Origin: Enterobacter phage KKP_3711
Length of the DNA stretch: 64,000 nt
Strand: one strand, 5' to 3'
Sequence record: PP579741.1
Program-made: the position numbers and the translations under genes
Notes under the pieces: model-generated
What the model was told of the DNA's origin: nothing
The model's database searches: none
What the model saw: the letters and a program-made list of their open reading frames with translations, nothing else
Shown here: piece after piece, positions 6,876 through 41,562 of the stretch
How the letters are laid out: every line of letters starts with the position of its first letter
Position numbering within the stretch: the stretch's first letter is position 1

Positions 6876-6880
6876 AATTT

Positions 6881-7287: not shown

Positions 7288-7292
7288 AACTT

Positions 7293-7756: not shown

Positions 7757-7772
7757 ATTACTAAGGACTTTT

Positions 7773-8153: not shown

Positions 8154-8154
8154 A

Positions 8155-8678: not shown

Positions 8679-9134
8679 ATGTTTAAAGCTCTTCGCAAAA
8701 TGTTTACGGATTGGCTACTGCAAGAGCCTTATGTAGACACTATTACAAAGTCTAAAGATGGTACTACATTAACACAATTGATAACTCCTAGAGCGTTTGG
8801 GAGCGGTAGTTGGAGAATTGAAACTACTGCTGAAGGTCAATGGGGTTCTGTAATAATTTTTGGTATTGAACGAGATCTAGGGAAGTATAAAGACAAAGCC
8901 GTAGAGGCTTTAGAGGGTAGATTGGACAATATTTTCAATCAAGACTCTTTAGATAAAATTGCTATTATTGTGGAAGCAGCTGTAAAACGAAAAGGTTACA
9001 CCGCATTTAAGCACAATGGAAAACCTCATATGGAGTTTGTTAAATACTCTCTAGATCCTAGAGATGTTAAACGATTAAAACAAGCTTTAGTAGAGTATAA
9101 TTTCCTAAAAGATACCACAAAAAAGAAGAGCTAA
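8679..9134 (+). CDS. hypothetical protein (151 aa)
   Basis: ORF followed by terminator hairpin. Confidence 0.5.
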   Translation: MFKALRKMFTDWLLQEPYVDTITKSKDGTTLTQLITPRAFGSGSWRIETTAEGQWGSVIIFGIERDLGKYKDKAVEALEGRLDNIFNQDSLDKIAIIVEAAVKRKGYTAFKHNGKPHMEFVKYSLDPRDVKRLKQALVEYNFLKDTTKKKS

Positions 9135-9160
9135 AGCTCTCCTACTTTCCTTCAATATTG

Positions 9161-9188
9161 CCTTAAACGCCTTGTTTAAGGCTTTTTT
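9161..9188 (+). terminator. rho-independent terminator
   Basis: CCTTAAACG-CCTTG-TTTAAGG hairpin then CTTTTTTG. Confidence 0.5.
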
Positions 9189-9192
9189 GTAT

Positions 9193-9221
9193 TTGCTTTT
9201 CAATCAAAAAGTTGTTATAAT
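9193..9221 (+). promoter_or_regulatory. T5-type early sigma70 promoter
   Basis: TTGCTT-N17-TATAAT then tctttataaattgaggag RBS. Confidence 0.55.
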
Positions 9222-9247
9222 ATCTTTATAAATTGAGGAGAAAGCAA

Positions 9248-9478
9248 ATGCCTAAATATGTGAAAGTTAAATTTATCAAAACTGCTATTAATACCTATAG
9301 CTATGAAATTCCTGAAACCCTTAAAACTGAGCGTTTAGTAATCGGTGAAGCTATTGTGGTGCCTGTAGGCAATGATATGGATTTGAAAGTTGCCTATATT
9401 GCGGGAGTTTCTAATGAATCTAATGTTAGACCAGGTATTAAAATTAAAAAGGCTTATGGCTTAGTAAGGAAAATCTAA
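9248..9478 (+). CDS. hypothetical protein (76 aa)
   Basis: ATG 9248 preferred (RBS gaggagaaagcaa) over track start 9233. Confidence 0.45.
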   Translation: MPKYVKVKFIKTAINTYSYEIPETLKTERLVIGEAIVVPVGNDMDLKVAYIAGVSNESNVRPGIKIKKAYGLVRKI

Positions 9479-9768
9479 TGTGGTTATCACAATGTAATAG
9501 GTGTGGGAATAATACCTTCCAGATTATTGATAAATCTGTATCTGAAAATGGTTTATATATTCTACACAAAGTATCAAAGTGTACTAAATGTAAAGAAGAG
9601 AACTCTATTATCTCTTTCCCTAGAGCACTAGACAGGGACACTTCTCCTACTACAGTACCTAATAAGGGTCTTGCTTGGAAGAGTAACGAGAAGTGCTTAT
9701 TTGAAGGTTTACCGCCAGGAATTTATGGTATTTCATGTCCTTGCTCTAGATGTTCTATAAAATGCTAG
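9478..9768 (+). CDS. Cys-rich zinc-finger-like protein (96 aa)
   Basis: CNRCG ... CTKCK ... CPCSRCSIKC motifs. Confidence 0.45.
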   Translation: MWLSQCNRCGNNTFQIIDKSVSENGLYILHKVSKCTKCKEENSIISFPRALDRDTSPTTVPNKGLAWKSNEKCLFEGLPPGIYGISCPCSRCSIKC

Positions 9769-9775
9769 GAGATTT

Positions 9776-10003
9776 ATGTACGACCCACATCGTGAACGGT
9801 TATACAAGAAACGTTCCAAATACTGGAACATGGGCTGTTTCTATTCCGATAACAAACGTCGTGCTGGAATTGTGTTCCGTACGCCTTGTTTATGTAGTTG
9901 TCCTATGTGTGCTGGAGTTAAAGATAACTCACCTTTACGTTATAAGTTCTCTGATATTAAAAAGTTAGAAAAAGCTAAGGAAGAAATTAATGAAGCTTTT
10001 TGA
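9776..10003 (+). CDS. small Cys-rich protein (75 aa)
   Basis: CLCSCPMCAG motif. Confidence 0.4.
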   Translation: MYDPHRERLYKKRSKYWNMGCFYSDNKRRAGIVFRTPCLCSCPMCAGVKDNSPLRYKFSDIKKLEKAKEEINEAF

Positions 10004-10175
10004 TATTCGATACAAAGGGTTATGGTTAGGCGGTAAGTCATTAGTATTTGCTGAAAATGAAGAACAAGCTTTATCTTTAGTGCGTGAAGATCCTGCTACC
10101 GTAGAATTTGAAAACGTGACTATAGAAGAAATTAAAGCAGAAGGTATCATTCACAACGATAACGGAGATTACTAA
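9990..10175 (+). CDS. hypothetical protein (61 aa)
   Basis: ORF overlapping upstream end; acidic. Confidence 0.4.
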   Translation: MKLFDIRYKGLWLGGKSLVFAENEEQALSLVREDPATVEFENVTIEEIKAEGIIHNDNGDY

Positions 10176-10226
10176 TGCTATATTTTGAGGTAAGACCACA
10201 TTAAGATACTTTAAAGGAGGTACTTA

Positions 10227-10595
10227 ATGTCTAGAACTTATCGTAAGAAATCTGGTGATCGTTACTGGCGAGATAAACATCGTTCTAAATACAACTTCAA
10301 CAGGATTAATCCACGTCGTTATATTAAAGGTAACTTCTGGCACCTGGATGGTGAAGTTATTCCTATGACTCATGAAGAAATTGAAGTTGAAATTCAGGAA
10401 GATATCCTGAAGCATGAGAAGAAAGATGGGTATCTATGGGATTCCGTTTCTAAAAATGTTAAGTGGCACTCTAACAAAATGGTTAGAGGAGCTAACAGGA
10501 TGGAACTTCATCGAGTGATGAAAGATCCAGAAAATTATGACTACAATCGTGACCATGATCTTAGAAAGAAAGGTTTGTGGTGGGTGTATGATTAA
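10227..10595 (+). CDS. hypothetical basic protein (122 aa)
   Basis: RBS aaggagg upstream of ATG. Confidence 0.5.
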   Translation: MSRTYRKKSGDRYWRDKHRSKYNFNRINPRRYIKGNFWHLDGEVIPMTHEEIEVEIQEDILKHEKKDGYLWDSVSKNVKWHSNKMVRGANRMELHRVMKDPENYDYNRDHDLRKKGLWWVYD

Positions 10596-11939: not shown

Positions 11940-12245
11940 ATGAAATATTTACTCCTTGTAATTCTAGCTATCGGTTCTGCACATGCTTCCACCAAAGTAG
12001 AAGTTAAAAACAATCGAATCACTGTGCAAGAAAATGGTATCCGTCAGGACTACGGTACAGTTCGTAAAGTAGAAACTACACCATCTGGACAAGTTAAAAT
12101 CTATTCTAATAAAAACTTTTCAGGTGCAGCAGTTACTATTGATCGTTTCGGCAACACCGATGTTCAACGTTATAACAAGAGTTCTGTTTCTAGTTGTACC
12201 TATAACTGTCAGTTAGATCTAGAAGATGAAGAGGACGAAGAATGA
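11940..12245 (+). CDS. secreted/periplasmic protein with acidic C-terminus (101 aa)
   Basis: Signal peptide MKYLLLVILAIGSAHAS; C-terminus EDEEDEE. Confidence 0.5.
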   Translation: MKYLLLVILAIGSAHASTKVEVKNNRITVQENGIRQDYGTVRKVETTPSGQVKIYSNKNFSGAAVTIDRFGNTDVQRYNKSSVSSCTYNCQLDLEDEEDEE

Positions 12246-14385: not shown

Positions 14386-15116
14386 TGACATTATACATTG
14401 GATTGTGTGGGGAAGCTGGAGCAGGTAAAGATACCGCTGGGATTATACTTAAAGATATCTTTCTAAAAGATTCTTTCTATTCTTTTAAAAGCATTATGGT
14501 AACTAGTTTTGCTGCTCCTGTTTATGCTTTAGCTGAAGCATTGGTTAATGGCTCTCTAAAAGATAGAGCAAGTAAAGAAGTATTTCAAAAATACGATATT
14601 ACTCAACAGTTCTTAGAGTATATGAATGAAGTATATTGCTTTTATCAGCTAGATCAGTATAAAGATTTTCCCGATGCTTGGAACGAGTTTTTCCACAAAT
14701 CTCTTGTAGAATACACACATATTTCTCACAATGAAAAGGCAGAGTTTGCACTTCATATCTCCCCTAGACGTTTACTAGAACTTGTAGGGACAGAATTTGG
14801 TAGAGAAATTCTTGATACCAATGTTTGGTTAAAAGTAGTAAGTGATTCTGTAAAACGCAACGATGCAAAACTCGTCGTAGTTACGGATGTTCGTTTTGAC
14901 AACGAAGCATTATTCATTAGAAATCAAGATAAAGGGATGGTTATTGAAATTGTAGCCCCTGTTAATGAACATGCAACTAAGTCAACGCATGCCTCAGCTA
15001 AAGGTATCAACCAATCTTTGGTGAGTCATAAAATTATTAATAAAAAGAATGGAAAAGAGCAGTTTATCAAAGAACTTGAGAACTTTAACTGCCGTTTTGT
15101 ACGAGGACTTTATTAA
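14385..15116 (+). CDS. P-loop NTPase, deoxynucleoside-monophosphate-kinase-like
   Basis: Walker A GLCGEAGAGKDT near N-terminus; size about 243 aa similar to phage dNMP kinases. Confidence 0.45.
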   Translation: MTLYIGLCGEAGAGKDTAGIILKDIFLKDSFYSFKSIMVTSFAAPVYALAEALVNGSLKDRASKEVFQKYDITQQFLEYMNEVYCFYQLDQYKDFPDAWNEFFHKSLVEYTHISHNEKAEFALHISPRRLLELVGTEFGREILDTNVWLKVVSDSVKRNDAKLVVVTDVRFDNEALFIRNQDKGMVIEIVAPVNEHATKSTHASAKGINQSLVSHKIINKKNGKEQFIKELENFNCRFVRGLY

Positions 15117-15814
15117 TGAACACACGTAACGCTAAATTTGTGGGCGGCAAAAGCTTGGGCAGCGCAGGGAAGCCAAATTCTGGTGCAGTGACTACTTATA
15201 TTGGAAGAAAATCTGATGGAAGTGCTGGCCATGTCTATGGAACTGTCAAACAGGAAGCTAGAAATATTTACACCTTCCATTTAGACAACGAATTGATTGA
15301 TCCAGCAGCTTATCGTGATCTTTTTAGTATTCTCCGTGATATGAGTGAGAATGATGAAATGCATCTAATGATAAACGCACCTGGTGGTCGCCTTGACACC
15401 TGTGCACAGATGGTAAACCTGATTCAAAATACAAGTGGCACAGTAATTGGTCATTTGCTAGGACCTTCTGCCTCTGCACATACTTTTATCCTACTAGCAT
15501 GTCATGCTTGGGTAATTTATCCGCATTCTAGTATGATGGCTCACAGCTACTCTGGTGGTGTGTATGAAAAAGGTAACGAGATCCTCAAATCTGCACAAGC
15601 AACTCATAAGTTCTTTGAAGAACTGGTTACAGATGTGTATTACCCCTTCTATACAGAAGAAGAGATTGAAATGATCCTCGACAATAAAGATATTCATATT
15701 CACTCTAAGGATATTGAAGGTCGTTTAGAGCGAGTTCTAGAATATCGTGATAAGCTCGAAGAAGAATTAGCTAAAAAGTTAATAATCAATATTTCTGAAC
15801 CAACTTCGGAATAA
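15116..15814 (+). CDS. ClpP/S14-family serine peptidase-like protein
   Basis: INAPGG (cf. ClpP INSPGG), GPSASAH and MAHSYSGG motifs resembling ClpP catalytic regions. Confidence 0.4.
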   Translation: MNTRNAKFVGGKSLGSAGKPNSGAVTTYIGRKSDGSAGHVYGTVKQEARNIYTFHLDNELIDPAAYRDLFSILRDMSENDEMHLMINAPGGRLDTCAQMVNLIQNTSGTVIGHLLGPSASAHTFILLACHAWVIYPHSSMMAHSYSGGVYEKGNEILKSAQATHKFFEELVTDVYYPFYTEEEIEMILDNKDIHIHSKDIEGRLERVLEYRDKLEEELAKKLIINISEPTSE

Positions 15815-23957: not shown

Positions 23958-23986
23958 TTGACAAAAATAAAATAGTTTGATATAGT
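23958..23986 (+). promoter_or_regulatory. sigma70 promoter
   Basis: TTGACA-N17-TATAGT; followed by the agctacaagcct leader motif. Confidence 0.5.
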
Positions 23987-24327: not shown

Positions 24328-24333
24328 TATTAC

Positions 24334-24365
24334 AGCCCAGCTCACCAGAGTCTGGGCTTTTTTGT
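24334..24365 (+). terminator. rho-independent terminator
   Basis: AGCCCAG ... CTGGGCT hairpin plus TTTTTT. Confidence 0.6.
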
Positions 24366-24383
24366 CTGTATAGGATTTGCACA

Positions 24384-24836
24384 ATGAAAAATAGGGAACT
24401 CACAAATAAACTTCTTCTAGAAGAAATGCAAAACTTTCCACTAAGAAAGTTCTTAAAAGCTGATGGATCGGTCAATACTAGGAAGATAAAACTAATGCAT
24501 AAAGATTTTCAGCAAGACGCATTAGATATGATATTCCTTAGCAAAGCTATTGATAGACATGGACAGTTCTTTGGTTATGAAGAAATGTCTTTTAAGACTA
24601 TGACCCAGCAAGTGAAAATCTATTGTCCAGATTGTGATAGTTATTTCATGCAAATTGCTAGAGATCATATAGCGGGTTCAGGATGTCCTAACTGCAAACA
24701 TAAAGTAATCACTAGAAAGACAGAAGTAGGTGATTTTACAGTTCCTTGTAAATTTCATAGATGGAATGTAGTTCCTGGTGAGTACATTGAATTTTACAGT
24801 TCTAGGGGAGAAGTACTAAAGATTTCACTTGTTTAG
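24384..24836 (+). CDS. zinc-finger protein (150 aa)
   Basis: CPDCDS ... CPNCKHK; start codon overlaps a GGATTTGCACAAT motif. Confidence 0.5.
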   Translation: MKNRELTNKLLLEEMQNFPLRKFLKADGSVNTRKIKLMHKDFQQDALDMIFLSKAIDRHGQFFGYEEMSFKTMTQQVKIYCPDCDSYFMQIARDHIAGSGCPNCKHKVITRKTEVGDFTVPCKFHRWNVVPGEYIEFYSSRGEVLKISLV

Positions 24837-27150: not shown

Positions 27151-27156
27151 TATACA

Positions 27157-27184
27157 AAGCCTCCCTAACCGGAGGCTTTTTTAT
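27157..27184 (+). terminator. rho-independent terminator
   Basis: AAGCCTCC-CTAACC-GGAGGCTT plus TTTTTTATT. Confidence 0.6.
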
Positions 27185-27197: not shown

Positions 27198-27227
27198 TTG
27201 CAGGATTCGCACATAATATGATATACT
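27198..27227 (+). promoter_or_regulatory. weak sigma70-like promoter overlapping a GGATTCGCACATAAT motif
   Basis: TTGCAG-N17-ATATAC; the 13-mer variant lies in the spacer. Confidence 0.3.
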
Positions 27228-27252
27228 AATTACTGAAATTAAGGAGAATCGT

Positions 27253-28482
27253 ATGAAAATAAAAGATAAAGTAATTGAAATATGTAATAGATATATAGAG
27301 TGTCCTACTAGAACTTCCGAGCTAAGTAAAGATCAGCTAAAAATAGTTGAGTTAGTTACAAGACGTACTGCTGTTGACAAGGAAGGGCATATATTAGATA
27401 ATAAGAAGATGCTAACCACAGAAGAAATATACTCTATTAGACGTCCGGTAATTAATGGGTTTCTAGCAATACTAAAAGTACATATTCCTGAAGATTTAAA
27501 ACTATATGCAAAAGTTGCTGGAAAACATATTGTAGAAGATAAAGAATTGGTATGGCAAGATATTCATGAAGAATACTCAGCAGATCCTTGGTCTACTGTT
27601 AAAGATCCATTCATCCAATCTATACACTCTATATTTAAAGAAGAATATCAAGCAGTAAGGTATTATAAAGGTGAATCTAGAGTTAGAATATATACATCTA
27701 AAGGAGAGACTAAAACAGTATCTAAGTTTATGGAGGATGAATGGGAGTATGATAGATATCCTCAATATGATGGAGAGATTAAAAGAACTAAGTTATCTGA
27801 GGTTGTTAGTTTACAATACACTTTCGATCCTAATATTGTTCTTAAATTAGGTGGCAGAAGTTACTCTACTCTAAGTGAAGAAGAGAAGTATCTAGTAAGA
27901 TTCTTGTGTGAACCTAGAGGAGTCATATTAGAGAATAATAAATACAAAATAGATGATTCCTCAGACAAATATCTATTAGTACCTTCAGTTCATATAATGA
28001 GACTGCTAGGAAGTAATCTCACACCAACTGCAAACAGACACCATATATTTGCAGATGAAGAAATTAATTGGGATAATCAATCTTCTTCACCTAAAGAAGG
28101 TGAAATACCAACGAAGATGTATCTATCTTCAAAAATACCAATCACTAAACATATATTCCAACTAGCTGTAACCGAAGCAGTAACTTACGCCTTACTTAGA
28201 CTGTATCACTCGATTAAACAGGAAATTCCTCTAACTGTTATACAAGAAAATATACAGTTCATGTGTGTAGAATATAAAGATCAACTAGAGAAACTAATAA
28301 ATGCTTTGCACCTATTTTACATAGAAGATATTTATTTCACTATATCTAACCATCCTAGAATTGAAAGAAAAGATTTAGCGAGAGGCACTAGACAGTTTAA
28401 TCAGAGTGCAGCTAAGTTATATTTGGCGGAATTTATATACTATGCTAGAGTCGGTACATATACTTCCAAATTACGAGAGTAA
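27253..28482 (+). CDS. hypothetical protein (409 aa), AT-rich codon usage
   Basis: Own terminator/promoter pair upstream; K/I/E-rich composition unlike neighbours; last gene before the repeat region. Confidence 0.5.
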   Translation: MKIKDKVIEICNRYIECPTRTSELSKDQLKIVELVTRRTAVDKEGHILDNKKMLTTEEIYSIRRPVINGFLAILKVHIPEDLKLYAKVAGKHIVEDKELVWQDIHEEYSADPWSTVKDPFIQSIHSIFKEEYQAVRYYKGESRVRIYTSKGETKTVSKFMEDEWEYDRYPQYDGEIKRTKLSEVVSLQYTFDPNIVLKLGGRSYSTLSEEEKYLVRFLCEPRGVILENNKYKIDDSSDKYLLVPSVHIMRLLGSNLTPTANRHHIFADEEINWDNQSSSPKEGEIPTKMYLSSKIPITKHIFQLAVTEAVTYALLRLYHSIKQEIPLTVIQENIQFMCVEYKDQLEKLINALHLFYIEDIYFTISNHPRIERKDLARGTRQFNQSAAKLYLAEFIYYARVGTYTSKLRE

Positions 28483-29198
28483 GATTTCCATATAATGATA
28501 TATCTAAATTTAGAGGAAAATTTAAACTTTCTATGAAAAAATTTGGAGATTTCAAAAACGTATGTTATAATAATAAAAAGATTTCTCATGTTTACTAGTA
28601 AACAACTAGAGACATGAAAAAATCTGCGACTAGTGTCCCGGTGGTTCTAGAAATGCGTTGCACTTTCTGTGGAGCCGCCGGGGCGTAGCAACTAGTCGCA
28701 TGCAATTAATCAATAATATAAAAGTAATATGCCCGAAGTCTACTTAAAATTCAAGAGAGCTATATGAAATTTACCTTCGCTCCGCCACTGGTTACCTTGC
28801 TCTAGGGTTTTCTTAACTCTAGAGTATTTTTATTTCTAGAATTTATTTAACCCTAGAAATTTAGCATTATTTCAGCCTTGCTGAAGATTTGCCAAAGACC
28901 CCCTGTTAACATCTATTTCTCCTTTTTATCCCTACATTCATCCCACTTCTTCCCACATTTCCTTCTTATTCTGTCACTTCATTTCAACCCGCGGGAGTTG
29001 GCACCGTATGTAATCTTTGTCAACCCCTTTTAACTACCATTATCCCAAATAATTTAAAATTTTTTCTGCTAATCTACCACCAACTAAAATTTTCTCCAAT
29101 TAACCCCAAATAGGGCGGTTATAGGAGAGGGCGGTTATTTTCATAGTCGATTTTTTGAAAACCCAAATTTGAAATCTATTCTGAAAATATTTGTCATT

Positions 29199-29783
29199 GG
29201 ATTTGCACAATAGCAAATAAAACACTGTAGGATTTGCACATACCTAACCAAGTCTAGGGCAGAACAGAAGCCTCGCTTCAAATTTTGCCCTCACTCCAGA
29301 TACTTGCTCCTGAGTCACTCCTAATTACCAGGAGTTTACCTATGCAATCATACCAGTCAATTCCAAACTCTCGCAAATCTCCAATAATTAGAATAACCCA
29401 TCGGATTTGCACAATAGCAGGAGTCCAAGGATTTTTAAACGTCTCACAATATTTTCGAATCATAGTCCGGTTTCCAAATTTCGGGTCGGATTTGCACAAT
29501 GGTAACTCTAGCGTTGCCTCAGTCTGCAATAAGCCTAACTCTATCTATTAACGGTATTAGTTTTTAAGCTGCTTCTGGCCTACCTACTCTAGCAGTAGCA
29601 CATACAATTTTATCTGCTCTCGCAGGGCTGGTGGCTTGGCACCGGATTTGCCAGCGATTGGTGTAGGATTTGCACAATACCAAAAATTGCCATCGGATTC
29701 GCACAATTATCGGATTTGCACAATGCCCCGAACGCTCGGCCGCACGTAACCCATCGGATACGCACATGTCGGATTCGCACAAG
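29199..29783 (+). repeat. array of about 10 direct copies of 13-mer GGATT(T/C)GCACA(A/T)(T/G)
   Basis: Copies at 29199, 29230, 29403, 29488, 29666, 29695, 29712, 29756 and 29771 plus the variant 29642; all in the same orientation. Confidence 0.8.
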
Positions 29784-29804
29784 CGCAGGGGGTCGACCCC
29801 CTGC
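29783..29804. repeat. perfect 22-bp palindrome CGCAGGGGGTCGACCCCCTGCG
   Basis: Directly seen; centred on GTCGAC. Confidence 0.85.
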
Positions 29805-29819
29805 GGGTCTTTGATAATG

Positions 29820-29900
29820 CAAATACGAATCATTCGCGTTCAATAACCGAAATACGAATGAGAATGATTCGTATTCAGAAACGGGAGTGAGAATCACTCC
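29820..29900. repeat. inverted repeats AATACGAATCATTC/GAATGATTCGTATT and GGAGTGAgaaTCACTCC
   Basis: Directly seen. Confidence 0.75.
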
Positions 29901-29908
29901 TATTTGAG

Positions 29909-30010
29909 TTATCCACAGGTTTATACATTTTGTAAATTTGCTTGACAGGATTCTAGCGATTTTGAGGAGTTATCCACAGACTTATTAACAGGTTATCCTA
30001 CTGGATAAAT
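29909..30010. promoter_or_regulatory. DnaA-box cluster (TTATCCACA x2 plus TTATCCTAC/GGATAAA)
   Basis: Perfect DnaA consensus at 29909-29917 and 29970-29978; palindromic TTATCC..GGATAA at 29993-30010. Confidence 0.6.
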
Positions 30011-30126
30011 ATACAGTAGTTTCTGGTAGTGGGTTGTACTGATATCGATTTTAAGGCGTCTAAAACGCGCTACAGGCGTTTTAAATTTTTGGGAGGTATT
30101 AAAGGGAGGCTTTATTTCTACTAAGG

Positions 30127-30146
30127 GAAAACCGCTTGCGCGGGCT
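30127..30146 (-). terminator. rho-independent terminator for the minus-strand block
   Basis: On the - strand: CCGCGCAAGCGG hairpin followed by TTTTCCC. Confidence 0.4.
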
Positions 30147-30258
30147 AAAATTGATCGTCAAATACTTCCGGCCAGTAATGATTTATCACCGGTATTACTA
30201 TCAGACTAACGATAACACTGGGAATTATAATCCATACTAATAATTCAAGACTTGTCAT
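30145..30258 (-). CDS. small hydrophobic peptide (37 aa)
   Basis: ATG to TAG open frame on the - strand; single TM; below cutoff. Confidence 0.25.
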   Translation of the reverse strand: MTSLELLVWIIIPSVIVSLIVIPVINHYWPEVFDDQF

Positions 30259-30267
30259 GTTATACCT

Positions 30268-30408
30268 CTATACAAAAGCGATAACTAACAGGATAGCCAG
30301 CACGATAAACAGAAACCAGTTACCGCCACCAGCCTGCAAACGGGAATTATGTTTCCCGCCGTGATTATTATTTTTGTGTGACGCTGTACGCCGCCAGAAT
30401 TTATTCAT
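30268..30408 (-). CDS. small membrane protein (46 aa)
   Basis: TAATG overlap with upstream ORF; C-terminal TM helix FLFIVLAILLVIAFV. Confidence 0.3.
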   Translation of the reverse strand: MNKFWRRTASHKNNNHGGKHNSRLQAGGGNWFLFIVLAILLVIAFV

Positions 30409-34324: not shown

Positions 34325-34381
34325 GATAATATGTTAATATTATCTACTTAACCCTAAACTTAAATTATGGAGATATATACC

Positions 34382-34789
34382 ATGACTACTACTAAATCCG
34401 CTAAAACTGTAAAATCTACTGCTTTTGCATGGGATGAAGAAAACACCGCTAAAGCGGGCGATCTTTATAACCAGATGGTAGAAGAAAGCGGGGTTGAATT
34501 TGCAAACGAGAATCTCAAAGTAATTGCGGAGAAACTCGGCGCTAAATCTGCGGCTGCTGTGCGTTCCAAACTGGTTAGCGCTAAAGTGTACCAGAAAGCC
34601 GATACGCCGCGTAAAGTTGGCGGCGGTAGCTCAATCCGTAAAATTCATTATGTGCGTGCTCTGGTTAAGGCCGCAGAAGCTAAAGGTCTGGAAGTTGAAG
34701 CCGATGCGCTGGATTCTCTGGAATCTTCTAAGATGTCAGCGCTTAAAATCCTTGCTGATATTGCCGGAGTTCAGGTTACAGGTGAATAA
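34382..34789 (+). CDS. pre-early hypothetical protein (135 aa)
   Basis: ATG 34382 (MTTTKSAK) in the track ORF; Ala/Lys-rich. Confidence 0.45.
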   Translation: MTTTKSAKTVKSTAFAWDEENTAKAGDLYNQMVEESGVEFANENLKVIAEKLGAKSAAAVRSKLVSAKVYQKADTPRKVGGGSSIRKIHYVRALVKAAEAKGLEVEADALDSLESSKMSALKILADIAGVQVTGE

Positions 34790-35183: not shown

Positions 35184-36857
35184 ATGTCTCGTATTTCCGC
35201 CGAAAATATTGCTCTTATCGTTAAACGTGCTGCTGGTTTAAACTATTTCGGCAAACGTCTGGACGATAAGAAAAATGAAGTCGCTGAAAAAATCAGCATG
35301 GAAGTATTCAATACGGCTAGCCGTTCGGCAGAAGTAAAACAGGTTATTGAAGATAATAAACCTGTAAAAGCTGATAAGCCAAAAGCCGAAAGGGTAGCGA
35401 AAGAAGATACTCGTCCAGTGGCTGCTGGTGCTATGAATAGTGCCGTTGATAACTGGAAAGTTAAAACGGGCAAACGCTTTATTCTTACTAGCATTCAAAA
35501 CAATACTTTCCCTCATGCTAACTTTTTAGCATCACTGGAAAAGGCCGCCGAATATCTCGGTGCTGAATTGCTGGTTAGCAAATATCTGTATAATAAAAAC
35601 GGATTCCAGAATGGGGAAGGCGGGAAAGATATTAAATTCGATTCTGCTTTCGATAAATATATTATTGAGGAAAACGTATTCCTTAATAATCGTGAATCTG
35701 GTTTCGCTTTTATGGCTGAATTAAACATTCTGCCTACTGCCTCTTATCCGCTGTCAGGATTCGCGGAAACGGCTACTGCATATGATCTTAAAGGTCTGGT
35801 AGTGGGTCACGCTAAAATTACTGCTGAGAGCGTGGCGGCGTTGAAGGGTGAATCTGTGCGCCGTTTATATTCAACTGGTACGGCTACACTGAAAAACTAT
35901 ATTCAGCAAAAGGCCGGACAAAAAGCCGAAGCGCTTCATAATTACGGTGCGCTGTTAGTTGAATTTGACGATGAAGGAACTTTCTTTGTCCGTCAACTGG
36001 AAGCTATGGATGCTAGCGGCGAATTTTACGATTTGAATCTTCATTTCACTCCTAGCGGAGTTAATGAAGTTACAGGTCATGTCTTAGCGCTGCAATATGG
36101 TGATATCCACGCCGAAAAAATTGATGATGAATGTGCTAGCGCGTCATGGAATAGTGAAGATTCATTGCTTGATATTCTCAAGCCGAAATATCAACTAATC
36201 CATGACGTTCATGACTTCACCAGTCGAAATCATCATAATCGTCAGAGCGGCGTTTTCCTTGCTGAGCAATATGCGCAAGGCCGTGACAAAGTGCTAGACG
36301 ATTTGATTGATACAGGTCGCATCCTTGAGCAAATGGATCGCCCATTCAGCCAAACGGTGATTGTTGAATCTAACCACGATTTAGCGCTCGCTCGTTGGCT
36401 TAATGACCCTAAAGCGAACATCACCCAAGACCCTGCAAACGCTCACCTATTCCATACTCTTAACGCCGCTATTTATGGTGCTATTGCAGACCGTGATACT
36501 AGTTTTAACGTTCTGGATTATGCGCTACGTCAGGTTGCAGGTTGCGATTTTGCCGCCGTTTTCCTTTCAACGGATGAATCTTTTAAACTGGCTGGCATTG
36601 AATGCGGCTGTCACGGTCATAATGGCATTAACGGCAGTAAGGGAAGCCCTAAACAATTTGTTAAGTTGGGCAAGATGAACACAGGTCATACTCATACGCC
36701 TAGCATTTACGGCGGTGTATATACTGCTGGCGTGTCTGGTAGTCTGGATATGGGTTATAACATTGGTGCATCTAGCTGGAGTCAGACGCATATCATTACC
36801 TATGCAAACGGTCAGCGTACTTTGATTGATTTTAAAAACGGTAAATTTTTCGCTTAA
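35184..36857 (+). CDS. A1: A1-like pre-early protein (metallophosphoesterase-type; second-step DNA transfer / host DNA degradation in T5)
   Basis: 557 aa vs 556-aa T5 A1; GDIHAEK(I)D and GHTHTP motifs; gene order A1-A2-dmp next to the ISS-like repeats. Confidence 0.65.
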   Translation: MSRISAENIALIVKRAAGLNYFGKRLDDKKNEVAEKISMEVFNTASRSAEVKQVIEDNKPVKADKPKAERVAKEDTRPVAAGAMNSAVDNWKVKTGKRFILTSIQNNTFPHANFLASLEKAAEYLGAELLVSKYLYNKNGFQNGEGGKDIKFDSAFDKYIIEENVFLNNRESGFAFMAELNILPTASYPLSGFAETATAYDLKGLVVGHAKITAESVAALKGESVRRLYSTGTATLKNYIQQKAGQKAEALHNYGALLVEFDDEGTFFVRQLEAMDASGEFYDLNLHFTPSGVNEVTGHVLALQYGDIHAEKIDDECASASWNSEDSLLDILKPKYQLIHDVHDFTSRNHHNRQSGVFLAEQYAQGRDKVLDDLIDTGRILEQMDRPFSQTVIVESNHDLALARWLNDPKANITQDPANAHLFHTLNAAIYGAIADRDTSFNVLDYALRQVAGCDFAAVFLSTDESFKLAGIECGCHGHNGINGSKGSPKQFVKLGKMNTGHTHTPSIYGGVYTAGVSGSLDMGYNIGASSWSQTHIITYANGQRTLIDFKNGKFFA

Positions 36858-37389: not shown

Positions 37390-38088
37390 ATGCAACAAAT
37401 CACTAATATTAATCTGTGGGATTTAGATGGTACAGTAATCAATTCCGCGCACCGTGTTTTACCTCTGCTGGATAGTGATGGTAATTTAGATCTAAATCGC
37501 TATCGTAATGAGGCCTGCAAACATGAATTAATTATTCAAGATTCATTGTTGCCACTGGTTGAATTAATGCGCCGCCAGATGTCAGCGCCTAATACAATCA
37601 ACTATATTATCACCGCTCGCGCCATGTCCAAGTCTGATTATTATTTCCTGCGTAAACAGGGATTGAGAGGTCGCAACGGTGACAATATCCAAGTATTTAG
37701 CCGTGATACTATTCATAAGTTTGCGCCGTTGGAATCGGTGAAACATATTTACAACTCTCGTGACGCTGATTATAAAGCGTTTTATTTTGATCATATTATC
37801 CGCTTACATGGTCGTGATAACGTTAATTATACTATGTATGATGATCATAAGGGTGTGCTAGAAAAGGCGCGTGAATATGGATTCAACGCCATAGACGCCA
37901 CGCAATTAAACGAGATGTTAACAATCGGCATTCAGTTAGCAAGCGAACAATTTCTGGAGGAAACTATTTCCGATGATTTAGATATTGATTATTTAAATCA
38001 AAGGTTGTCGTTTGCATGGCAACAATTAACAGAAGAAGAACAGGATTATTATTCTGTTAAGTATCCTAAACTAGCTCAGGCAGTTTAA
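37390..38088 (+). CDS. dmp: 5'-deoxyribonucleotidase (HAD superfamily), dmp-like
   Basis: N-terminal DLDGT HAD motif I; position after A1/A2 at the outer end of the repeat. Confidence 0.6.
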   Translation: MQQITNINLWDLDGTVINSAHRVLPLLDSDGNLDLNRYRNEACKHELIIQDSLLPLVELMRRQMSAPNTINYIITARAMSKSDYYFLRKQGLRGRNGDNIQVFSRDTIHKFAPLESVKHIYNSRDADYKAFYFDHIIRLHGRDNVNYTMYDDHKGVLEKAREYGFNAIDATQLNEMLTIGIQLASEQFLEETISDDLDIDYLNQRLSFAWQQLTEEEQDYYSVKYPKLAQAV

Positions 38089-38096: not shown

Positions 38097-38131
38097 AGCT
38101 AACCATTCCACTTCGAATGGTTAGCTTTTTA
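38097..38131 (+). terminator. rho-independent terminator
   Basis: AGCTAACCATTC-CACTTC-GAATGGTTAGCT plus TTTTT. Confidence 0.6.
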
Positions 38132-38282
38132 ATTATAACCATGCGTGATCATTCCACTTCGAATAGTAACGCATGGTAACTATCACGGTGGGCGGTAATT
38201 AGACTGCTAACTATCCCCCACCACTGTGGACCCACCCACATGTGTAACTTTTGAAAAATGGAGCAAAAAGTGTTATTAGCTC

Positions 38283-38358
38283 ATAGGAAAGTTACATATG
38301 CATAGGAAAGTTACATATGCATAGAAAAGTTACATATGCATAGAAAAGTTACCCACAA
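38283..38358 (+). repeat. tandem 19-bp repeats ATAG(G/A)AAAGTTACATATGC x 3.5
   Basis: Directly seen at the inner boundary of the inferred terminal repeat. Confidence 0.8.
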
Positions 38359-38469
38359 TCTCACATATAATTGCACCAAATCTCCCACCCAAACCACCCA
38401 ACAGACCCACAAATTGCCACATTTAGCACGAAATTCAACGACTTATACAAGCAATCCAATTCCAACTCC

Positions 38470-38868
38470 TTATAAATATGTAATTACACGAGGTTCTGTT
38501 AAAGAGAAAGAAACTAATACTGCAATATCATCCTCTTTAATATCGTAATCATCACGGAATACTAAGCCACCATCTTCAATAACCATTTTCCATGATTGGC
38601 CTGTAAACCTTTCGAGTCTATTACGAAGAATACCCGCAGCCTCAGAATCTAAATTATGAATCTGATCATACATATCAGACAGACTAAATGGATCCGCCGG
38701 CTTGGTTTTCAAATATAAGTCTAGTAATTTCCAGCATCTGTGATTAATATCCAGACAACTAGAACTATTCCATACTAACCAGCGATAAAATAATTGTAAC
38801 ATTATAACCACCCTAGCATAAAGAGAATCATTACTACTACAAAAATTAAGAAGATTAAAGTTCCGCAT
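38470..38868 (-). CDS. hypothetical protein (132 aa), divergent from the RBP gene
   Basis: ORF in track on the - strand in the position where T5 carries llp; no signal peptide or lipobox. Confidence 0.3.
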   Translation of the reverse strand: MRNFNLLNFCSSNDSLYARVVIMLQLFYRWLVWNSSSCLDINHRCWKLLDLYLKTKPADPFSLSDMYDQIHNLDSEAAGILRNRLERFTGQSWKMVIEDGGLVFRDDYDIKEDDIAVLVSFSLTEPRVITYL

Positions 38869-39020
38869 CCAAAACTATTAATCCATGAATCGTATACTTC
38901 TCCGCGTCTCATTGGCAATACCTTTTGTGAAGTTTAAAAATTAGTTTTACATTTTCTTCTATTTATTTTATAATTATAATATATTTTAGGTAACTTAGCA
39001 AATAAAATTTAGGAGAGATT

Positions 39021-41069
39021 ATGAGCTTTTTTGCAGGAAGAATTGGTACAAAAACAGTTCTATCCCTCAACAGTGCCAGTGGAGGCGATATAAATGTCCA
39101 TCTTAACCCTAATACCAATACTATTTTCCATAGTGATATGCCATATGTCATAATCCAAGAACAATATTCCGCTAATCTTGGCGCCGTAGGTTCTGACTAT
39201 TATGTGTGTGATATGCCAGCTGCGGTAGCAAACTATGTAAGTAACACTAGCAGAATATTGATTCCTATGTTAACTGTTAATTATGGTGGCGTGGAATATA
39301 ATACTATTCTAGGTGGCGGCTCTATGTCTCTAGGTAACTGTACTGCGGGAGGTACCGAACTAAACCTAGGTACGACAATGGCAACTGCTGAGTGCGGCGC
39401 TCAGCTACGTAATATTTGGGGTTTTTCAAACGACGTTGTTTGGGATACAGGTTACTATACTAAAAGTAGTAGTTTATCTGATGTATTAAGTATTGGTCAA
39501 GGTACTGGTAGAAGTATTGATATAATGAGTGCTAGTCTTTATTACGCTGCTACTTACAGTACAGGCGGAGGTGGTATAGGTATTCCTCCAATTCCAGATT
39601 TAGATCAGTCATACCTATATTTAGCTAGTGGTGCTATCTACAGTGGTAGAATTCCTTCCGTGGACCAAGATGGTAGACTTAGATGGGCTGATGAAGATAG
39701 ACAATATAATACAAAGATAGGTTCTGTTACTCGTACTATTGCTATTAATAGCCACTTCCAAACTCCAACAGGTAGAAGCTTAGGTCATTCTAAATTCTAT
39801 GTTCGCAGAGGTATTGCTGCTCTAGTAAAAGCTTGGCGTGTTAGGTATAACCAAGGAGCAGGTACAGGAGAAACTTTAGTACAAAGATACACTAATAGTT
39901 TTTATGCTCAGTCTGGTGATCGTATAGATGAAGTATGGCAGCGTACTAGTTTCCATTCTAATACCAGTACTGTTATCGCTCCAGATACTACAGGTACTTA
40001 TCTAAACGTAGATTATAAAGCTAGCCTGTATAATATGGTAACGCCTGTCAGAATGACTTGGTTTGTAACTAATGTTACATATAATGAGTCAGCAGGTACT
40101 TATTCTGCTAGTAATCCCTTTACTGTAAATAATGACATTAGATTGTCTCCTTCTGATTTTATTATTAAAGGTGTTAATTTAGGAACTACTGCATGGAGTT
40201 TCTTAATGCAACTTTCTGCTGGTGCCCTTTATAACGCTAATGGCCGTGTTGTGATGGGAGCTAATGGTAGTAGAAGTACTGCCAAGAATGGTAGTTCAGC
40301 AGCAGCTATTCCTATTCCTTACATGTCTGGGACTACCGAAAGATTTATAGGCGGAGATACTACGGATGGTTGGCAGTTACATAAATTAGCATTGTATCAA
40401 TTCAATAGAAATAGACAATGGAAAGTAGATACTAGATCTAATTCAATTAGTAATGCAGAAGGTGATGTATGGAGTCCCGGAGTTAATCCATTAAAAATAT
40501 TTGCTGGTAATAGTTCGGTGGTTAACGTAGGAGGTAATACATTAAACTCCAATACAGGGGAAGTATTATTGACTACCGTTAACTTAGGTATGAATACTAA
40601 TGTACGAGCAGGTTCGGTAATTTGTTCCGTTCAGCTAAGGGATGCCACAGTATTTACATCTGGGGGCTATGGGTCTTTTGTAATATGTTCTCCTAGACCA
40701 GGAAATCCAGAATCTTTGGGACTATCTGCTAGTACTTCTAGAATGAGGACTTCGGGAGGTATTGGTGCAGTACACCATCATTTGTTCTGTACACTTCCTG
40801 TTGGTAGATTTGTGCCTGTTTATGCTATAAGAACCGCTGGATATAACTTTGTGTTAACTCCGTCTTTCCAGCCGCTATGGTTTACCCCTAGTAATGTTCA
40901 AATGAGTAATAGAACTCTAGAATGTTCTTTCATAATTTATTTGAAAAATGAAGGTAATGGTAACGTAGGTATTTATTGTGGTACTGGTCGTAACGCAGAT
41001 GCCGCGGCTATGGGTAACTTCTCTTTCATTTTACCAAACTTACGTATTTCTGTACAGCGTCTCACTTAA
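39021..41069 (+). CDS. receptor-binding tail protein (pb5-like)
   Basis: N-terminus MSFFAG...SGGD..H.NP...TIFHSDM and C-terminus ...QRLT match T5 pb5 from memory; position upstream of terminase; central region divergent. Confidence 0.7.
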   Translation: MSFFAGRIGTKTVLSLNSASGGDINVHLNPNTNTIFHSDMPYVIIQEQYSANLGAVGSDYYVCDMPAAVANYVSNTSRILIPMLTVNYGGVEYNTILGGGSMSLGNCTAGGTELNLGTTMATAECGAQLRNIWGFSNDVVWDTGYYTKSSSLSDVLSIGQGTGRSIDIMSASLYYAATYSTGGGGIGIPPIPDLDQSYLYLASGAIYSGRIPSVDQDGRLRWADEDRQYNTKIGSVTRTIAINSHFQTPTGRSLGHSKFYVRRGIAALVKAWRVRYNQGAGTGETLVQRYTNSFYAQSGDRIDEVWQRTSFHSNTSTVIAPDTTGTYLNVDYKASLYNMVTPVRMTWFVTNVTYNESAGTYSASNPFTVNNDIRLSPSDFIIKGVNLGTTAWSFLMQLSAGALYNANGRVVMGANGSRSTAKNGSSAAAIPIPYMSGTTERFIGGDTTDGWQLHKLALYQFNRNRQWKVDTRSNSISNAEGDVWSPGVNPLKIFAGNSSVVNVGGNTLNSNTGEVLLTTVNLGMNTNVRAGSVICSVQLRDATVFTSGGYGSFVICSPRPGNPESLGLSASTSRMRTSGGIGAVHHHLFCTLPVGRFVPVYAIRTAGYNFVLTPSFQPLWFTPSNVQMSNRTLECSFIIYLKNEGNGNVGIYCGTGRNADAAAMGNFSFILPNLRISVQRLT

Positions 41070-41079
41070 GGAGAAATTA

Positions 41080-41562
41080 ATGAGCACAGATGTATTAGTA
41101 CCAGAAGAAATGTCACCTGAAGGTATGCGTGTCGTTGAGGCCTACCTTGATTGTGGCTCTGATATCACCCAAGTAGGAGATTACTTGGGTATGCCTCAGG
41201 AAACGGTTATGGCAATCTATAATCGTCCTGAAGTTAAACATTATATTACCACTCTTTTTATGGAGAGTGGTTTCCGTAATCGAGATAAGTTCTTTGGGGT
41301 TATGGATGAAATTGTTAAGAAAAAGCTAGAAGATTTAGAAGAATCCGAATTAGGTTCTGATGCAGATATTCTTGAGATTATGAAAGTATACCATAAAATG
41401 AAGATGGATGAAATGGCTATGCAAATCAAACTACTAGAAGCTCAGACTAAGGTAAGAACACCAACTACTCAAACTAATATTCAGAATAACTTCAATCTTC
41501 CAGGGTCGGATGATGGCAACTATATGGCGCTTATGAATCGACTTTCAGGAGCTAGAAAGTAA
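41080..41562 (+). CDS. terminase small subunit candidate
   Basis: ATG after RBS ggagaaatta; HTH-like segment ITQVGDYLGMPQETVMAIY; immediately upstream of terL. Confidence 0.45.
   Translation: MSTDVLVPEEMSPEGMRVVEAYLDCGSDITQVGDYLGMPQETVMAIYNRPEVKHYITTLFMESGFRNRDKFFGVMDEIVKKKLEDLEESELGSDADILEIMKVYHKMKMDEMAMQIKLLEAQTKVRTPTTQTNIQNNFNLPGSDDGNYMALMNRLSGARK

What the first reader, a model, noticed from the sequence alone, without database searches (positions are those of the whole stretch)
24373..24385. The ISS 13-mer recurs at the start codons/promoters of two early genes
GGATTTGCACAAT overlaps the ATG of ORF 24384, which sits right after a terminator with no recognizable sigma70 promoter. The variant GGATTCGCACATAAT occupies the spacer of the weak promoter of the AT-rich ORF 27253 (27205-27219). 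Sharing a site between the injection-stop region and two gene starts suggests one DNA-binding factor coordinating DNA transfer and expression of these genes.
Basis: seen in the sequence. Interest (0 to 1): 0.6.

Follow-up and report, generated by a model that had tools for sequence, protein, structure and literature searches.

The report
Stray copies of T5 repeat D
The 13-base motif is this T5-like phage's version of the already annotated T5 "direct repeat D"; the two copies at gene starts are real stray members of that family, but relatives suggest the DNA site itself is what is kept, not control of those two genes.

Summary
GGATTTGCACAAT occurs 6 times exactly (0.00 expected). The core GGATTYGCACA occurs 10 times (0.02 expected), all on the + strand: 8 exact copies plus one 1-mismatch copy in an array at 29199-29781, and single copies at 24373 and 27203.

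The motif is not new. It is the "direct repeat D" (DRD) annotated in phage T5, where 3 of 12 copies also lie outside the array.

The array sits on the second-step side of the conserved nick site, not in the stretch usually proposed as the injection stop signal.

The 24373 copy supplies the ribosome-binding AGGA and abuts the ATG. It is conserved in three lineages, decayed in one and absent in one. The 27203 copy fills the spacer of a real promoter, is the first element of a swappable gene cassette, and is mutated or missing in close relatives.

In the T5 clade the nearest stray copy lies inside a coding sequence and is conserved beyond protein need. Stray copies therefore look like selected DNA sites at a roughly fixed distance from the nick (2.2-3.3 kb), whatever gene lies there.

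A Vibrio relative has a different repeat at the same place, which favours a phage-encoded binder over DnaA.

Verdict: ordinary member of a known repeat family. The regulatory reading is only partly supported, and the function is still unknown.

The parts
24373..24385 (+). Outlying DRD copy, exact 13-mer GGATTTGCACAAT. With the preceding A it gives AGGA (24372-24375), a Shine-Dalgarno 8 nt before the ATG at 24384.
   Evidence: ATAGGATTTGCACAATG is conserved in the window, L091 and L097 lineages (69-71% aa identity of the downstream protein to the window's), while the bases on both sides differ. It is degenerate in L092 and absent in L093.
24339..24364 (+). Intrinsic-terminator-like hairpin plus T-run ending the upstream transcription unit. 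ORF 24384 has no promoter of its own behind it.
24384..24836 (+). Early ORF, 150 aa, zinc-ribbon protein (PF05265/DUF723 in the precomputed Pfam hits, phrog_4605). Homologue of T5 ORF022.
27203..27213 (+). Outlying DRD copy GGATTCGCACA. It overlaps the last base of the -35 and fills the promoter spacer.
   Evidence: It is exact in L055, GGTTTCGCACA in L054/L059, TGTCGAATTAGCACA in L091, degenerate in L053, and replaced by an unrelated spacer in L051/L056/L057.
27198..27227 (+). Early promoter: -35 TTGCAG (27198-27203), 18-nt spacer, TG (27219-27220), -10 TATACT (27222-27227). It is preceded by a terminator (27156-27179) and an A/T tract.
   Evidence: Read. The module is conserved in 7 aligned relatives. 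It was not picked up by the consensus scan.
27203..28728 (+). Exchangeable cassette: promoter spacer, -10, leader, the 409-aa ORF 27253-28482 (phrog_30674, about 31-33% GC) and about 250 bp of 3' flank. Near-identical relatives carry other gene sets here.
29199..29781 (+). DRD array, 9 copies all on the + strand: 29199, 29230, 29403, 29488, 29666, 29695, 29712, 29756 (GGATACGCACA, 1 mismatch) and 29771.
   Evidence: Same motif, strand and position as T5 direct repeat D copies 1-9.
29783..29790 (+). GCGCAGGG, the reverse complement of the T5 nick consensus CCCTGCGC. It starts 2 nt after the last DRD copy, as at the T5 7.9% nick.
29784..29805 (.). G+C-rich palindrome CGCAGGGGGTCGACCCCCTGCG next to the nick consensus, in the position of T5 palindrome J.
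29909..29978 (+). Two consensus DnaA boxes TTATCCACA (29909, 29970), in the stretch conserved with other T5-like phages (29816-30115).
   Evidence: Literature.
34367..34789 (+). A2 orthologue, the pre-early DNA-binding protein (phrog_1725; 57% identical to T5 A2). Candidate DRD binder; this is inferred only.
   Evidence: A2 is essential for second-step transfer (paper).
35184..36857 (+). A1 orthologue (557 aa), about 72-75% identical to the A1 of T5-like phages.
40978..41562 (+). 194-aa ORF directly upstream of the large terminase (41562-42881). Possible small terminase and alternative candidate DRD binder; weak evidence.
   Evidence: Large terminase domains at E 2e-14. Only a sub-threshold HTH-like hit (E 0.068) for the 194-aa ORF.

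Best explanation
The 13-mer is this phage's form of the T5 "direct repeat D" (DRD). DRD is a strand-locked, iteron-like DNA motif, core (T/A)(C/A)GGATT(T/C)GCACA.

**Where it sits (shown)**
- The main array has 9 copies at 29199-29781. It starts 2 nt from the conserved nick-1 sequence.
- The array extends about 0.6 kb into the DNA that enters the cell in the second transfer step.
- The copies at 24373 and 27203 are genuine outlying members of the family.

**What appears to be selected (inferred from comparison)**
- Outliers are kept as DNA sites in the first few kb of second-step DNA: 2.2-3.3 kb from the nick, and about 5.4 kb in this clade (4.7 kb in the L091 lineage).
- This holds whatever is encoded there. 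Here they sit in a promoter spacer and a ribosome-binding site. In other lineages they sit inside coding sequences.
- The selected property is therefore the site and its position, not control of one gene.

**Who binds (inferred, not shown)**
- The array and the outliers are bound by one phage-encoded sequence-specific protein.
- The first candidate is the essential pre-early DNA-binding protein A2, acting when second-step transfer restarts.
- The alternative is the small terminase. In relatives with determined ends the terminal-repeat boundary falls inside the array.

**Consequence for the two genes (inferred)**
A protein bound at 27203 would occlude the 27198 promoter. A protein bound at 24373 would sit just behind a terminator. 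Some damping of these two genes is therefore possible, but as a side effect.
For: **Motif is non-random and strand-locked**
- 6 exact 13-mers against 0.00 expected, and 10 exact 11-mers against 0.02 expected, all on the + strand.

**Identity with T5 DRD**
- Same motif, same strand relative to the gene map, and same position next to the nick consensus.
- In T5 all 12 hits with at most 1 mismatch in the 119 kb read are on one strand.

**Conservation of outliers**
- In 18 distinct homologues of T5 ORF019, copy 10 overlaps the single most conserved 13-nt window of the gene. Five consecutive third-codon positions are invariant there, against 19% background invariance.
- The 24373 site is a conserved 17-nt island in three lineages whose flanks have diverged.
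- The L091 promoter-spacer copy carries the same substitutions as L091's own array copies.
- Relatives that lack the promoter copy carry an in-CDS copy GGATTAGCACA 2.2 kb from the nick.

**Position**
- Nick-to-nearest-outlier distance is 2.2-3.3 kb in three non-homologous contexts.

**Binder**
- Vibrio phage PG07 has the same architecture but its array repeat is AGAATCCGCAC. The motif therefore varies with phage lineage.
- The terminal-repeat end lies inside the array in T5. The ends of the right-repeat loci imply the same for My1 and the L033/L039 phage.
Against: - No binding protein is known, and nothing here tests binding.
- Outliers are not universal.
  - None in 65 kb of the Vibrio phage.
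  - No convincing one in the partial loci held for DU_PP_V and the L033/L042 type; the My1 locus ends about 2.4 kb beyond its array.
  - None at the 2-3 kb position in L053, L057 or L060.
- The 27203 copy is mutated at a core position in two near-identical relatives.
- The 24373 site is lost in L093 and decayed in L092.
- T5's two far copies inside the D13 gene show no extra conservation. They look like a chance match plus a 15-bp duplication.
- The similar distances partly reflect the size of one or two genes next to the array.
- The number of independent lineages is small.
Confidence: 0.45

Rival explanations
1. First reader's reading. The outlying copies are operators: one DNA-binding factor that acts at the injection-stop region also switches ORF 24384 and ORF 27253 on or off, coupling DNA transfer to their expression.
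For: - The 27203 copy lies exactly in the -35/spacer of a real, conserved promoter module. That is a classic place for a repressor.
- The 24373 copy lies between a terminator and the start codon. It is conserved in three lineages.
- Both outliers lie in the roughly 10-15% of the region that is non-coding. For two random positions that has a probability of about 0.02 (my estimate).
Against: - The equivalent outliers in the T5 clade and in the L051-type cassette are inside coding sequences, far from any start.
- T5 ORF022, the homologue of ORF 24384, and its relatives have no DRD upstream.
- The spacer copy is mutated, degenerate or replaced in close relatives that keep the same promoter.
- A DNA-bound protein on a ribosome-binding site does not act on translation.
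- No excess of weaker sites at other gene starts. The other hits with at most 2 mismatches lie inside ORFs.
Confidence: 0.2
2. Neutral relics. The array region is a hot spot for gene insertion and cassette exchange. Outlying copies are pieces of array, or spacer sequence, carried along or split off, with no function of their own.
For: - Ten near-identical relatives carry several alternative gene sets next to the array. Against L051/L057 the left breakpoint is exactly at 27202|27203, where the motif starts.
- An HNH gene sits inside the array in L053/L059, which have fewer DRD copies.
- The array itself is mosaic between relatives.
- Same strand and proximity to the array follow automatically from this model.
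Against: - Nucleotide-level conservation of T5 copy 10 beyond coding need.
- The conserved 24373 island.
- The cassette's right boundary (about 28729-28741) is not at a DRD, so DRD copies do not flank the cassette as recombination joints.
- No extended similarity between outlier flanks and array flanks beyond a few bases.
Confidence: 0.2
3. Host DnaA (or another conserved host factor such as Fis or IHF) binds the motif as a weak box.
For: - ATTTGCACA inside the motif is one mismatch from TTWTNCACA.
- True DnaA boxes lie 130-200 bp away, and the literature proposes DnaA binding in this region.
Against: - No copy meets the consensus (one search lists none at DRD positions).
- The common C variant (ATTCGCACA) has two mismatches, one at a specified T.
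- The conserved GG, and in most array copies the TC before it, lie outside a DnaA 9-mer.
- In the Vibrio phage the repeat changes to AGAATCCGCAC, while DnaA-box-like TTGTGGATA repeats persist nearby.
Confidence: 0.05
4. At 24373 the sequence is kept only because it provides a Shine-Dalgarno, spacer and start codon. The match to the array is historical, and 27203 is a chance match.
For: - AGGA lies 8 nt before the ATG. L092 keeps TAGGA and GCACA but changes the middle.
- One extra same-strand 11-mer has an expectation of about 0.01-0.03 in 64 kb (and my arithmetic).
Against: - The 8 spacer bases are identical in three diverged lineages.
- L093 translates the same gene with no such sequence.
- The 13/13 exact match has an expectation of about 0.002.
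- The 27203 site recurs in the L091 lineage, with that lineage's own array variants.
Confidence: 0.07

Closest known systems
Bacteriophage T5 'direct repeat D' (DRD), copies 1-12 in GenBank AY587007; Repeat Region 3 of the left terminal repeat (Davison 2020 bioRxiv 10.1101/866236)
   Same: - Same core sequence: T5 TGTGCAAATCCGACA is the reverse complement of TGTCGGATTTGCACA.
- All copies on one strand.
- An array of 9 copies starting a few bases from the nick-1 consensus.
- The array lies between the palindrome / DnaA-box block and the first early genes.
- Annotated copies outside the array.
   Different: - This phage prefers the extension GCACAAT, and an A or C before GG.
- Its outliers lie at a ribosome-binding site and in a promoter spacer. 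The T5 outliers lie inside ORF019 and the D13 gene.
- Surrounding DNA is below 80% identical to any deposited phage.
Terminase recognition arrays next to genome ends (lambda cosB R sites, SPP1 pacL/pacR boxes, T7 short-repeat arrays beside the terminal repeat). These are recalled from my own knowledge.
   Same: Several direct copies of a short motif flank the place where the virion DNA end is made. In T5 the repeat end (10139) lies between DRD copies 6 and 7. The locus ends imply the same for My1 and the L033/L039 phage.
   Different: No terminase binding is known for DRD. The ends of this phage are not determinable from the window. Single copies kilobases away are not a feature of those systems.
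DnaA boxes (TTWTNCACA)
   Same: Shares TTTGCACA. Lies near true DnaA boxes in a region proposed to bind DnaA.
   Different: Fails the 9-mer consensus. The conserved bases extend outside the box. The repeat varies with phage lineage.
Shared early promoter / stem-loop cassettes that mediate gene shuffling in T4-type phages (PeSL). Recalled from my own knowledge.
   Same: A conserved terminator / A+T tract / -35 module precedes a slot where unrelated genes are exchanged.
   Different: This concerns the cassette slot, not the DRD motif. DRD is present in only some of the cassette variants.

Membership tests
T5 direct repeat D (DRD) | Core sequence CGGATT(T/C)GCACA | tested here: met
   The 11-mer GGATTYGCACA is exact at 24373 and 27203 and in 8 array copies. 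It is identical to the T5 copies. The base before GG is A in both outliers. In the nine array copies it is C in six, A in two and T in one.
T5 direct repeat D (DRD) | All copies in one orientation, the same as the array | tested here: met
   10 of 10 exact copies on the + strand in the window. 12 of 12 on one strand in T5.
T5 direct repeat D (DRD) | Array adjacent to the nick-1 consensus, on the early-gene side of the palindrome / DnaA-box block | tested here: met
   The last copy ends at 29781 and GCGCAGGG is at 29783-29790. The DnaA boxes are at 29909 and 29970.
T5 direct repeat D (DRD) | Occasional copies outside the array | tested here: met
   T5 copies 10-12 are annotated. The window has 24373 and 27203.
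DnaA box | 9-mer matching TTWTNCACA | tested here: not met
   None of the 14 consensus matches in the window coincides with a DRD copy. DRD gives ATTTGCACA or ATTCGCACA.
DnaA box | Sequence independent of phage lineage, because DnaA specificity is conserved in gamma-proteobacteria (my own knowledge) | tested here: not met
   The Vibrio phage PG07 array repeat is AGAATCCGCAC.
Promoter operator (repressor site) | Overlap with core promoter elements | tested here: met
   27203-27213 overlaps the last base of the -35 and fills the spacer. The 24373 site has no promoter to overlap.
Promoter operator (repressor site) | Site conserved together with the promoter in relatives | tested here: inconclusive
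   Kept in the window, L055 and, as a variant, L091. One core change in L054/L059. Degenerate in L053. Absent in L051/L056/L057, which have the same promoter module.
Promoter operator (repressor site) | A cognate DNA-binding protein and an effect on transcription | not testable with these tools
   Needs EMSA or footprinting and reporter assays.
Terminase recognition (pac/cosB-type) array | Repeats flank the DNA end-forming cut | tested here: inconclusive
   True in T5 (annotated repeat end 10139) and implied for My1 and L033/L039. The ends of the window phage are unknown, because the assembly joins the pre-early region to the late genes.
Terminase recognition (pac/cosB-type) array | Bound by the small terminase | not testable with these tools
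   The candidate small terminase 40978-41562 has only a sub-threshold HTH-like hit.

The most novel reading that the evidence does not exclude
DRD copies are waypoints for DNA entry rather than gene switches.
- The roughly 0.6-0.74 kb array directly behind the nick is the first DNA to enter when transfer restarts.
- Single copies kept 2.2-3.3 kb and 4.7-5.6 kb further in would be bound, in one orientation, by a pre-early protein (A2, alone or with A1). That protein would hold or ratchet the incoming DNA.
- This would give the essential but unexplained A2 a sequence target. It would also tie DNA transfer to transient silencing of the genes next to the entry point.
- The array span is close to the length of DNA that would fill a T5-type tail. 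The tail length is recalled from memory and was not checked here.
Probability: 0.15. Interest if true: 0.7.

Novelty: new member of a known kind. Interest (0 to 1): 0.35.

Why it matters
How T5 stops and restarts DNA transfer has been open since the 1960s. A 2026 study still calls A2's role in second-step transfer "an as-yet-unknown mechanism". DRD repeats are listed in the T5 papers I could read, but those give them no function.

The useful result here is not the two gene starts. It is that single DRD copies outside the array appear to be conserved as DNA sites in two clades: inside a coding sequence in the T5 clade, and at a ribosome-binding site in this clade. The repeat also changes with phage lineage. 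Together these give concrete, cheap experiments: binding assays with A2 or the small terminase, and synonymous recoding of T5 copy 10. As a claim about regulation of two genes in one uncultured phage, it is minor.

Tried and rejected
- **Literature search for the motif sequence** found only miR-19b papers.
- **Davison's 2015 review** is not held under its DOI or under the PMC id I guessed.
- **T5 packaging literature:** no paper on a T5 pac site was found.
- **Close relatives of the 409-aa protein** in the viral-contig collection: none.
- **Synteny with T5 copy 10.** I suspected that ORF 24028 was homologous to the N-terminal half of T5 ORF019, which would have made 24373 syntenic with copy 10. 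BLAST found no similarity, so I dropped the idea.
- **T5 ORF022 homologues** in T5-type phages have no DRD upstream.
- **T5 DRD copies 11/12 in the D13 gene** were tested as evidence for a genome-wide strand-locked signal. They show ordinary codon variation, encode a repeated VQI(L/R)Q peptide, and are absent in My1 and DU_PP_V. I do not count them.
- **DRD as the recombination joint of the cassette:** the right boundary is not at a DRD.
- **RNA-level role:** no Rfam family reaches its threshold. The 24330-24420 RNA fold shows only the terminator hairpin, z = -1.15.
- **DnaA-box membership:** fails.
- **A2 alignment** (window, T5, Vibrio) gives 57% and 43% identity to the window protein. It does not discriminate between candidate binders.
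- **HSV UL9 resemblance:** the UL9 origin-binding site CGTTCGCACTT resembles the motif. This is recalled from memory only and was not tested.

Full report
**What the window is**

The window is a T5-like phage (Demerecviridae) read in the opposite orientation to the standard T5 map.
- A tRNA cluster lies at 685-8428 and early genes run on the + strand to 28482.
- A 1.9-kb non-coding stretch follows at 28483-30400.
- Then come the pre-early genes: an A2 orthologue at 34367-34789 (phrog_1725; 57% identical to T5 A2), A1 at 35184-36857 (about 72-75% identical to the A1 of T5-like phages), and a 232-aa ORF at 37390-38088 that I read as the dmp (deoxynucleotidase) orthologue from its position and size, without testing it.
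- After about 39 kb come the late genes, with the large terminase at 41562-42881.
- The pre-early region runs straight into the late genes. The assembly has therefore collapsed the terminal repeats, and the physical ends cannot be read from the window.
- At the DNA level only a 300-bp non-coding stretch (29816-30115) resembles deposited phages at 77-89% identity. This is a divergent lineage.

**The observation**

GGATTTGCACAAT is at 24373-24385, and its last two bases begin the ATG of ORF 24384.
- The exact 13-mer occurs 6 times in 64 kb against 0.00 in shuffles.
- The core GGATTYGCACA occurs 10 times against 0.02 expected. Every copy is on the + strand.
- Eight exact copies plus one 1-mismatch copy form an array at 29199-29781.
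- The two others are at 24373 and 27203.
- A terminator-like hairpin sits at 24339-24358, and no promoter-like site lies between it and the ATG.
- With the preceding A, the motif's GGA forms AGGA 8 nt before the ATG. The motif therefore doubles as the ribosome-binding site.
- It lies between TTGCAG (27198-27203) and a TG-extended TATACT (27222-27227), behind the terminator at 27156-27179.

**What the motif is**

It is the "direct repeat D" annotated in T5 (AY587007).
- On the T5 + strand it reads TGTGCAAATCCGACA, the reverse complement of TGTCGGATTTGCACA.
- T5 has nine copies at 9672-10409, starting 4 nt from the 7.9% nick (CCCTGCGC, 9661-9668).
- T5 also has annotated copies outside the array: copy 10 inside ORF019 (12073-12086) and copies 11 and 12 inside the D13 (exo2) gene.
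- In the 119 kb of T5 that I read, all 12 hits with at most 1 mismatch are on one strand.
- The window has the same layout. The last copy ends at 29781, GCGCAGGG is at 29783-29790, then come a G+C-rich palindrome and two TTATCCACA boxes at 29909 and 29970.
- Davison's review lists the DRD copies but assigns them no function. [quoted passage not shown]
- DRD lies on the other side of that point, in DNA that enters in the second step. "ISS 13-mer" is therefore a loose label.

**The 24373 site in relatives**

- Ten metagenomic contigs of about 113 kb encode the identical 150-aa protein, and all have the site. They are too close to be informative.
- Homologues at 65-71% identity gave four further lineages.
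- ATAGGATTTGCACAATG is identical in the window, L091 and L097, although the bases on both sides differ.
- L092 has TAGGAAAAGCACATATG. L093 has no trace of the motif and no Shine-Dalgarno either.
- In T5-type phages the homologous gene (ORF022) has no DRD upstream.
- The site is therefore conserved within part of this clade, beyond what a ribosome-binding site needs. It is not required for the gene.

**The 27203 site in relatives**

- The terminator, A/T tract, TTGTTGCA and -10 form a conserved module. The spacer differs between relatives:

| Relative | Spacer at the DRD position |
|---|---|
| window, L055 | exact DRD |
| L054, L059 | GGTTTCGCACA (1 mismatch) |
| L091 | TGTCGAATTAGCACA |
| L053 | degenerate |
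| L051, L056, L057 | unrelated sequence |

- The two substitutions in the L091 copy are the ones seen in L091's own array copies.
- Homology between the window and L051/L057 ends exactly at 27202|27203 and resumes at about 28729.
- The motif is thus the first element of an exchangeable cassette. Its gene content differs among otherwise near-identical phages: 409 aa; 290+127 aa; about 120+268 aa; 417 or 428 aa.
- Relatives with the about 120+268 aa cassette lack the spacer copy. They carry GGATTAGCACA inside the first cassette ORF, where it encodes G-L-A-Q.
- That copy has unchanged synonymous positions in four sequences, while neighbouring codons vary.
- GGATTAGCACA is also an array variant in L091.

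**The T5 clade**

- Copy 10 lies in the middle of ORF019, 347 nt from its start, and encodes S-D-L-H-N.
- Across 18 distinct homologues, the 13-nt window TGCACAATGTTCC is the most conserved of the whole gene. It overlaps the 3' half of the motif.
- Five consecutive third-codon positions there are invariant, against a background of 19%. The very next codons (Pro, Cys, Gly, Gly) vary freely at synonymous sites.
- The variants seen at this site (GGATATGCACA, GGAAATGCACA) change positions 4-5 of the core. GGATATGCACA also occurs within arrays; GGAAATGCACA was not seen in any array.
- This argues for selection on the DNA itself, at a place with no promoter or start codon.
- Copies 11 and 12 in the D13 gene behave differently. 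They show ordinary codon variation in 28 sequences, encode VQILQ-VQIRQ, and are missing in My1 and DU_PP_V. I treat them as a chance match plus a local duplication.

**Position**

- I measured distances from the nick consensus. The array spans 584-739 bp in the loci that contain the complete array.
- The nearest outlier lies at these distances:

| Context | Distance from the nick consensus |
|---|---|
| T5 clade, inside ORF019 | 2.37-3.35 kb |
| L051 type, inside the cassette ORF | 2.21-2.26 kb |
| window, L054, L055, L059, in the promoter spacer | 2.58-2.86 kb |

- The second outlier of this clade (the 24373 site) lies at 4.87-5.64 kb, and at 4.70 kb in L091.
- No outlier lies on the pre-early side in the window or in T5.
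- The three contexts are not homologous, so the similar distance is notable.
- It partly reflects the size of the one or two genes next to the array, and the number of independent cases is small.
- L053, L057 and L060 have no copy at the 2-3 kb position.

**Who binds**

- The motif fails the DnaA consensus. Its conserved bases extend beyond a 9-mer.
- Vibrio phage PG07 shows the same order of elements: a repeat array, GCGCAG-containing repeats, DRC-like repeats and DnaA-box-like TTGTGGATA repeats. Its array repeat, however, is AGAATCCGCAC, with five copies and no outlier in 65 kb.
- A repeat that changes with phage lineage points to a phage-encoded protein rather than a conserved host factor. 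This rests on the assumption that the two repeats are equivalent.
- **Candidate 1: A2.** It is the essential pre-early DNA-binding protein needed for second-step transfer, and its mechanism is unknown.
- **Candidate 2: the small terminase.** The T5 terminal-repeat end (10139) lies between DRD copies 6 and 7. The right-repeat loci of My1 and of the L033/L039 phage also end inside their arrays. The left end enters the cell first, so it should be packaged last and packaging should start at that boundary. This last step is my inference.
- I cannot choose between these two candidates.

**Verdict**

- The recurrence is real, and the two sites are true members of the DRD family.
- The best-supported reading is that they are outlying iterons kept for a DNA-level, position-dependent role in the first kilobases of second-step DNA.
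- A bound protein would occlude the 27198 promoter and sit behind the 24339 terminator. That would be a side effect.
The proposed coupling to these two genes is weakly supported, and the DnaA suggestion is disfavoured.
- The family is already known. The positions in this phage and the evidence for selection on outliers are new but modest.

Noticed in passing
window 27203-28728; L051-L060 about 8750-10400: A gene-cassette slot next to the array. Ten relatives with an identical ORF 24384 protein carry different gene sets here: 409 aa; 290+127 aa with a T5orf172 domain; about 120+268 aa; 417 or 428 aa. The left breakpoint is inside the promoter (at the -35 or after the leader). The right breakpoint is at about 28729-28741.
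   Followed up: partly
L053 10987-11478; L059 10781-11272: An HNH endonuclease gene (163 aa, opposite strand) sits inside the DRD array of two relatives. These have only 4-6 DRD copies instead of 9.
   Followed up: no
window 15162-15169 (+): A second exact copy of the nick consensus GCGCAGGG lies on the same strand as the one at 29783, inside ORF 15116-15814. Only 2 copies occur in the window (0.31 expected). It may correspond to the T5 18.3% nick, which lies in the dnk gene.
   Followed up: no
window 29909, 29970 (+) and 33202, 33263, 33275 (-): Consensus DnaA boxes form two clusters of opposite orientation 3.3 kb apart. This matches the IRD'/IRC' and IRC/IRD arrangement described for T5-like phages.
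   Followed up: partly
window about 28900-29120 (+): A strongly pyrimidine-rich non-coding stretch on the + strand lies between the last early gene and the first DRD copy. GC skew is -0.16 to -0.22 there.
   Followed up: no
window 29199-29790; related loci: The span from the nick consensus to the farthest array copy is nearly constant: 584-586 bp in most of this clade (737 bp in L053/L059) and 600-739 bp in the T5 clade. This holds despite mosaic sequence between the copies.
   Followed up: partly
L095 1476-1921 (Vibrio phage vB_VpS_PG07): The equivalent array uses a different repeat, ATAGAATCCGCACTCACA (5 copies). It is followed by GCGCAG-containing repeats and CAAATGCGAATAATTCTCATT-type repeats, as in the window's 29816-29880.
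   Followed up: partly
L050 9019-9048 (T5 79019-79048): T5 DRD copies 11 and 12 inside the D13 (exo2) gene encode a repeated VQILQ-VQIRQ peptide. They are no more conserved than the rest of the gene and are absent in My1 and DU_PP_V.
   Followed up: yes
L011 8934-9186; L043 12837-13252: An otherwise unexamined 14-kb viral contig has seven 42-bp tandem units that each contain GGATTCGCACA. An 89-kb metagenomic phage contig has DRD-like copies in both orientations.
   Followed up: no
window 38100-39020: The ORF I take to be dmp, the outermost pre-early gene, ends at 38088 and the late-gene block starts at 39021. The record is therefore a collapsed or circularised assembly of a genome that should have about 10-kb terminal repeats.
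   Followed up: no
window 23958-23986: A near-consensus promoter (TTGACA-17-TATAGT with TG) precedes the 99-aa ORF 24028. ORF 24384 can only be reached from it by reading through the terminator at 24339.
   Followed up: no
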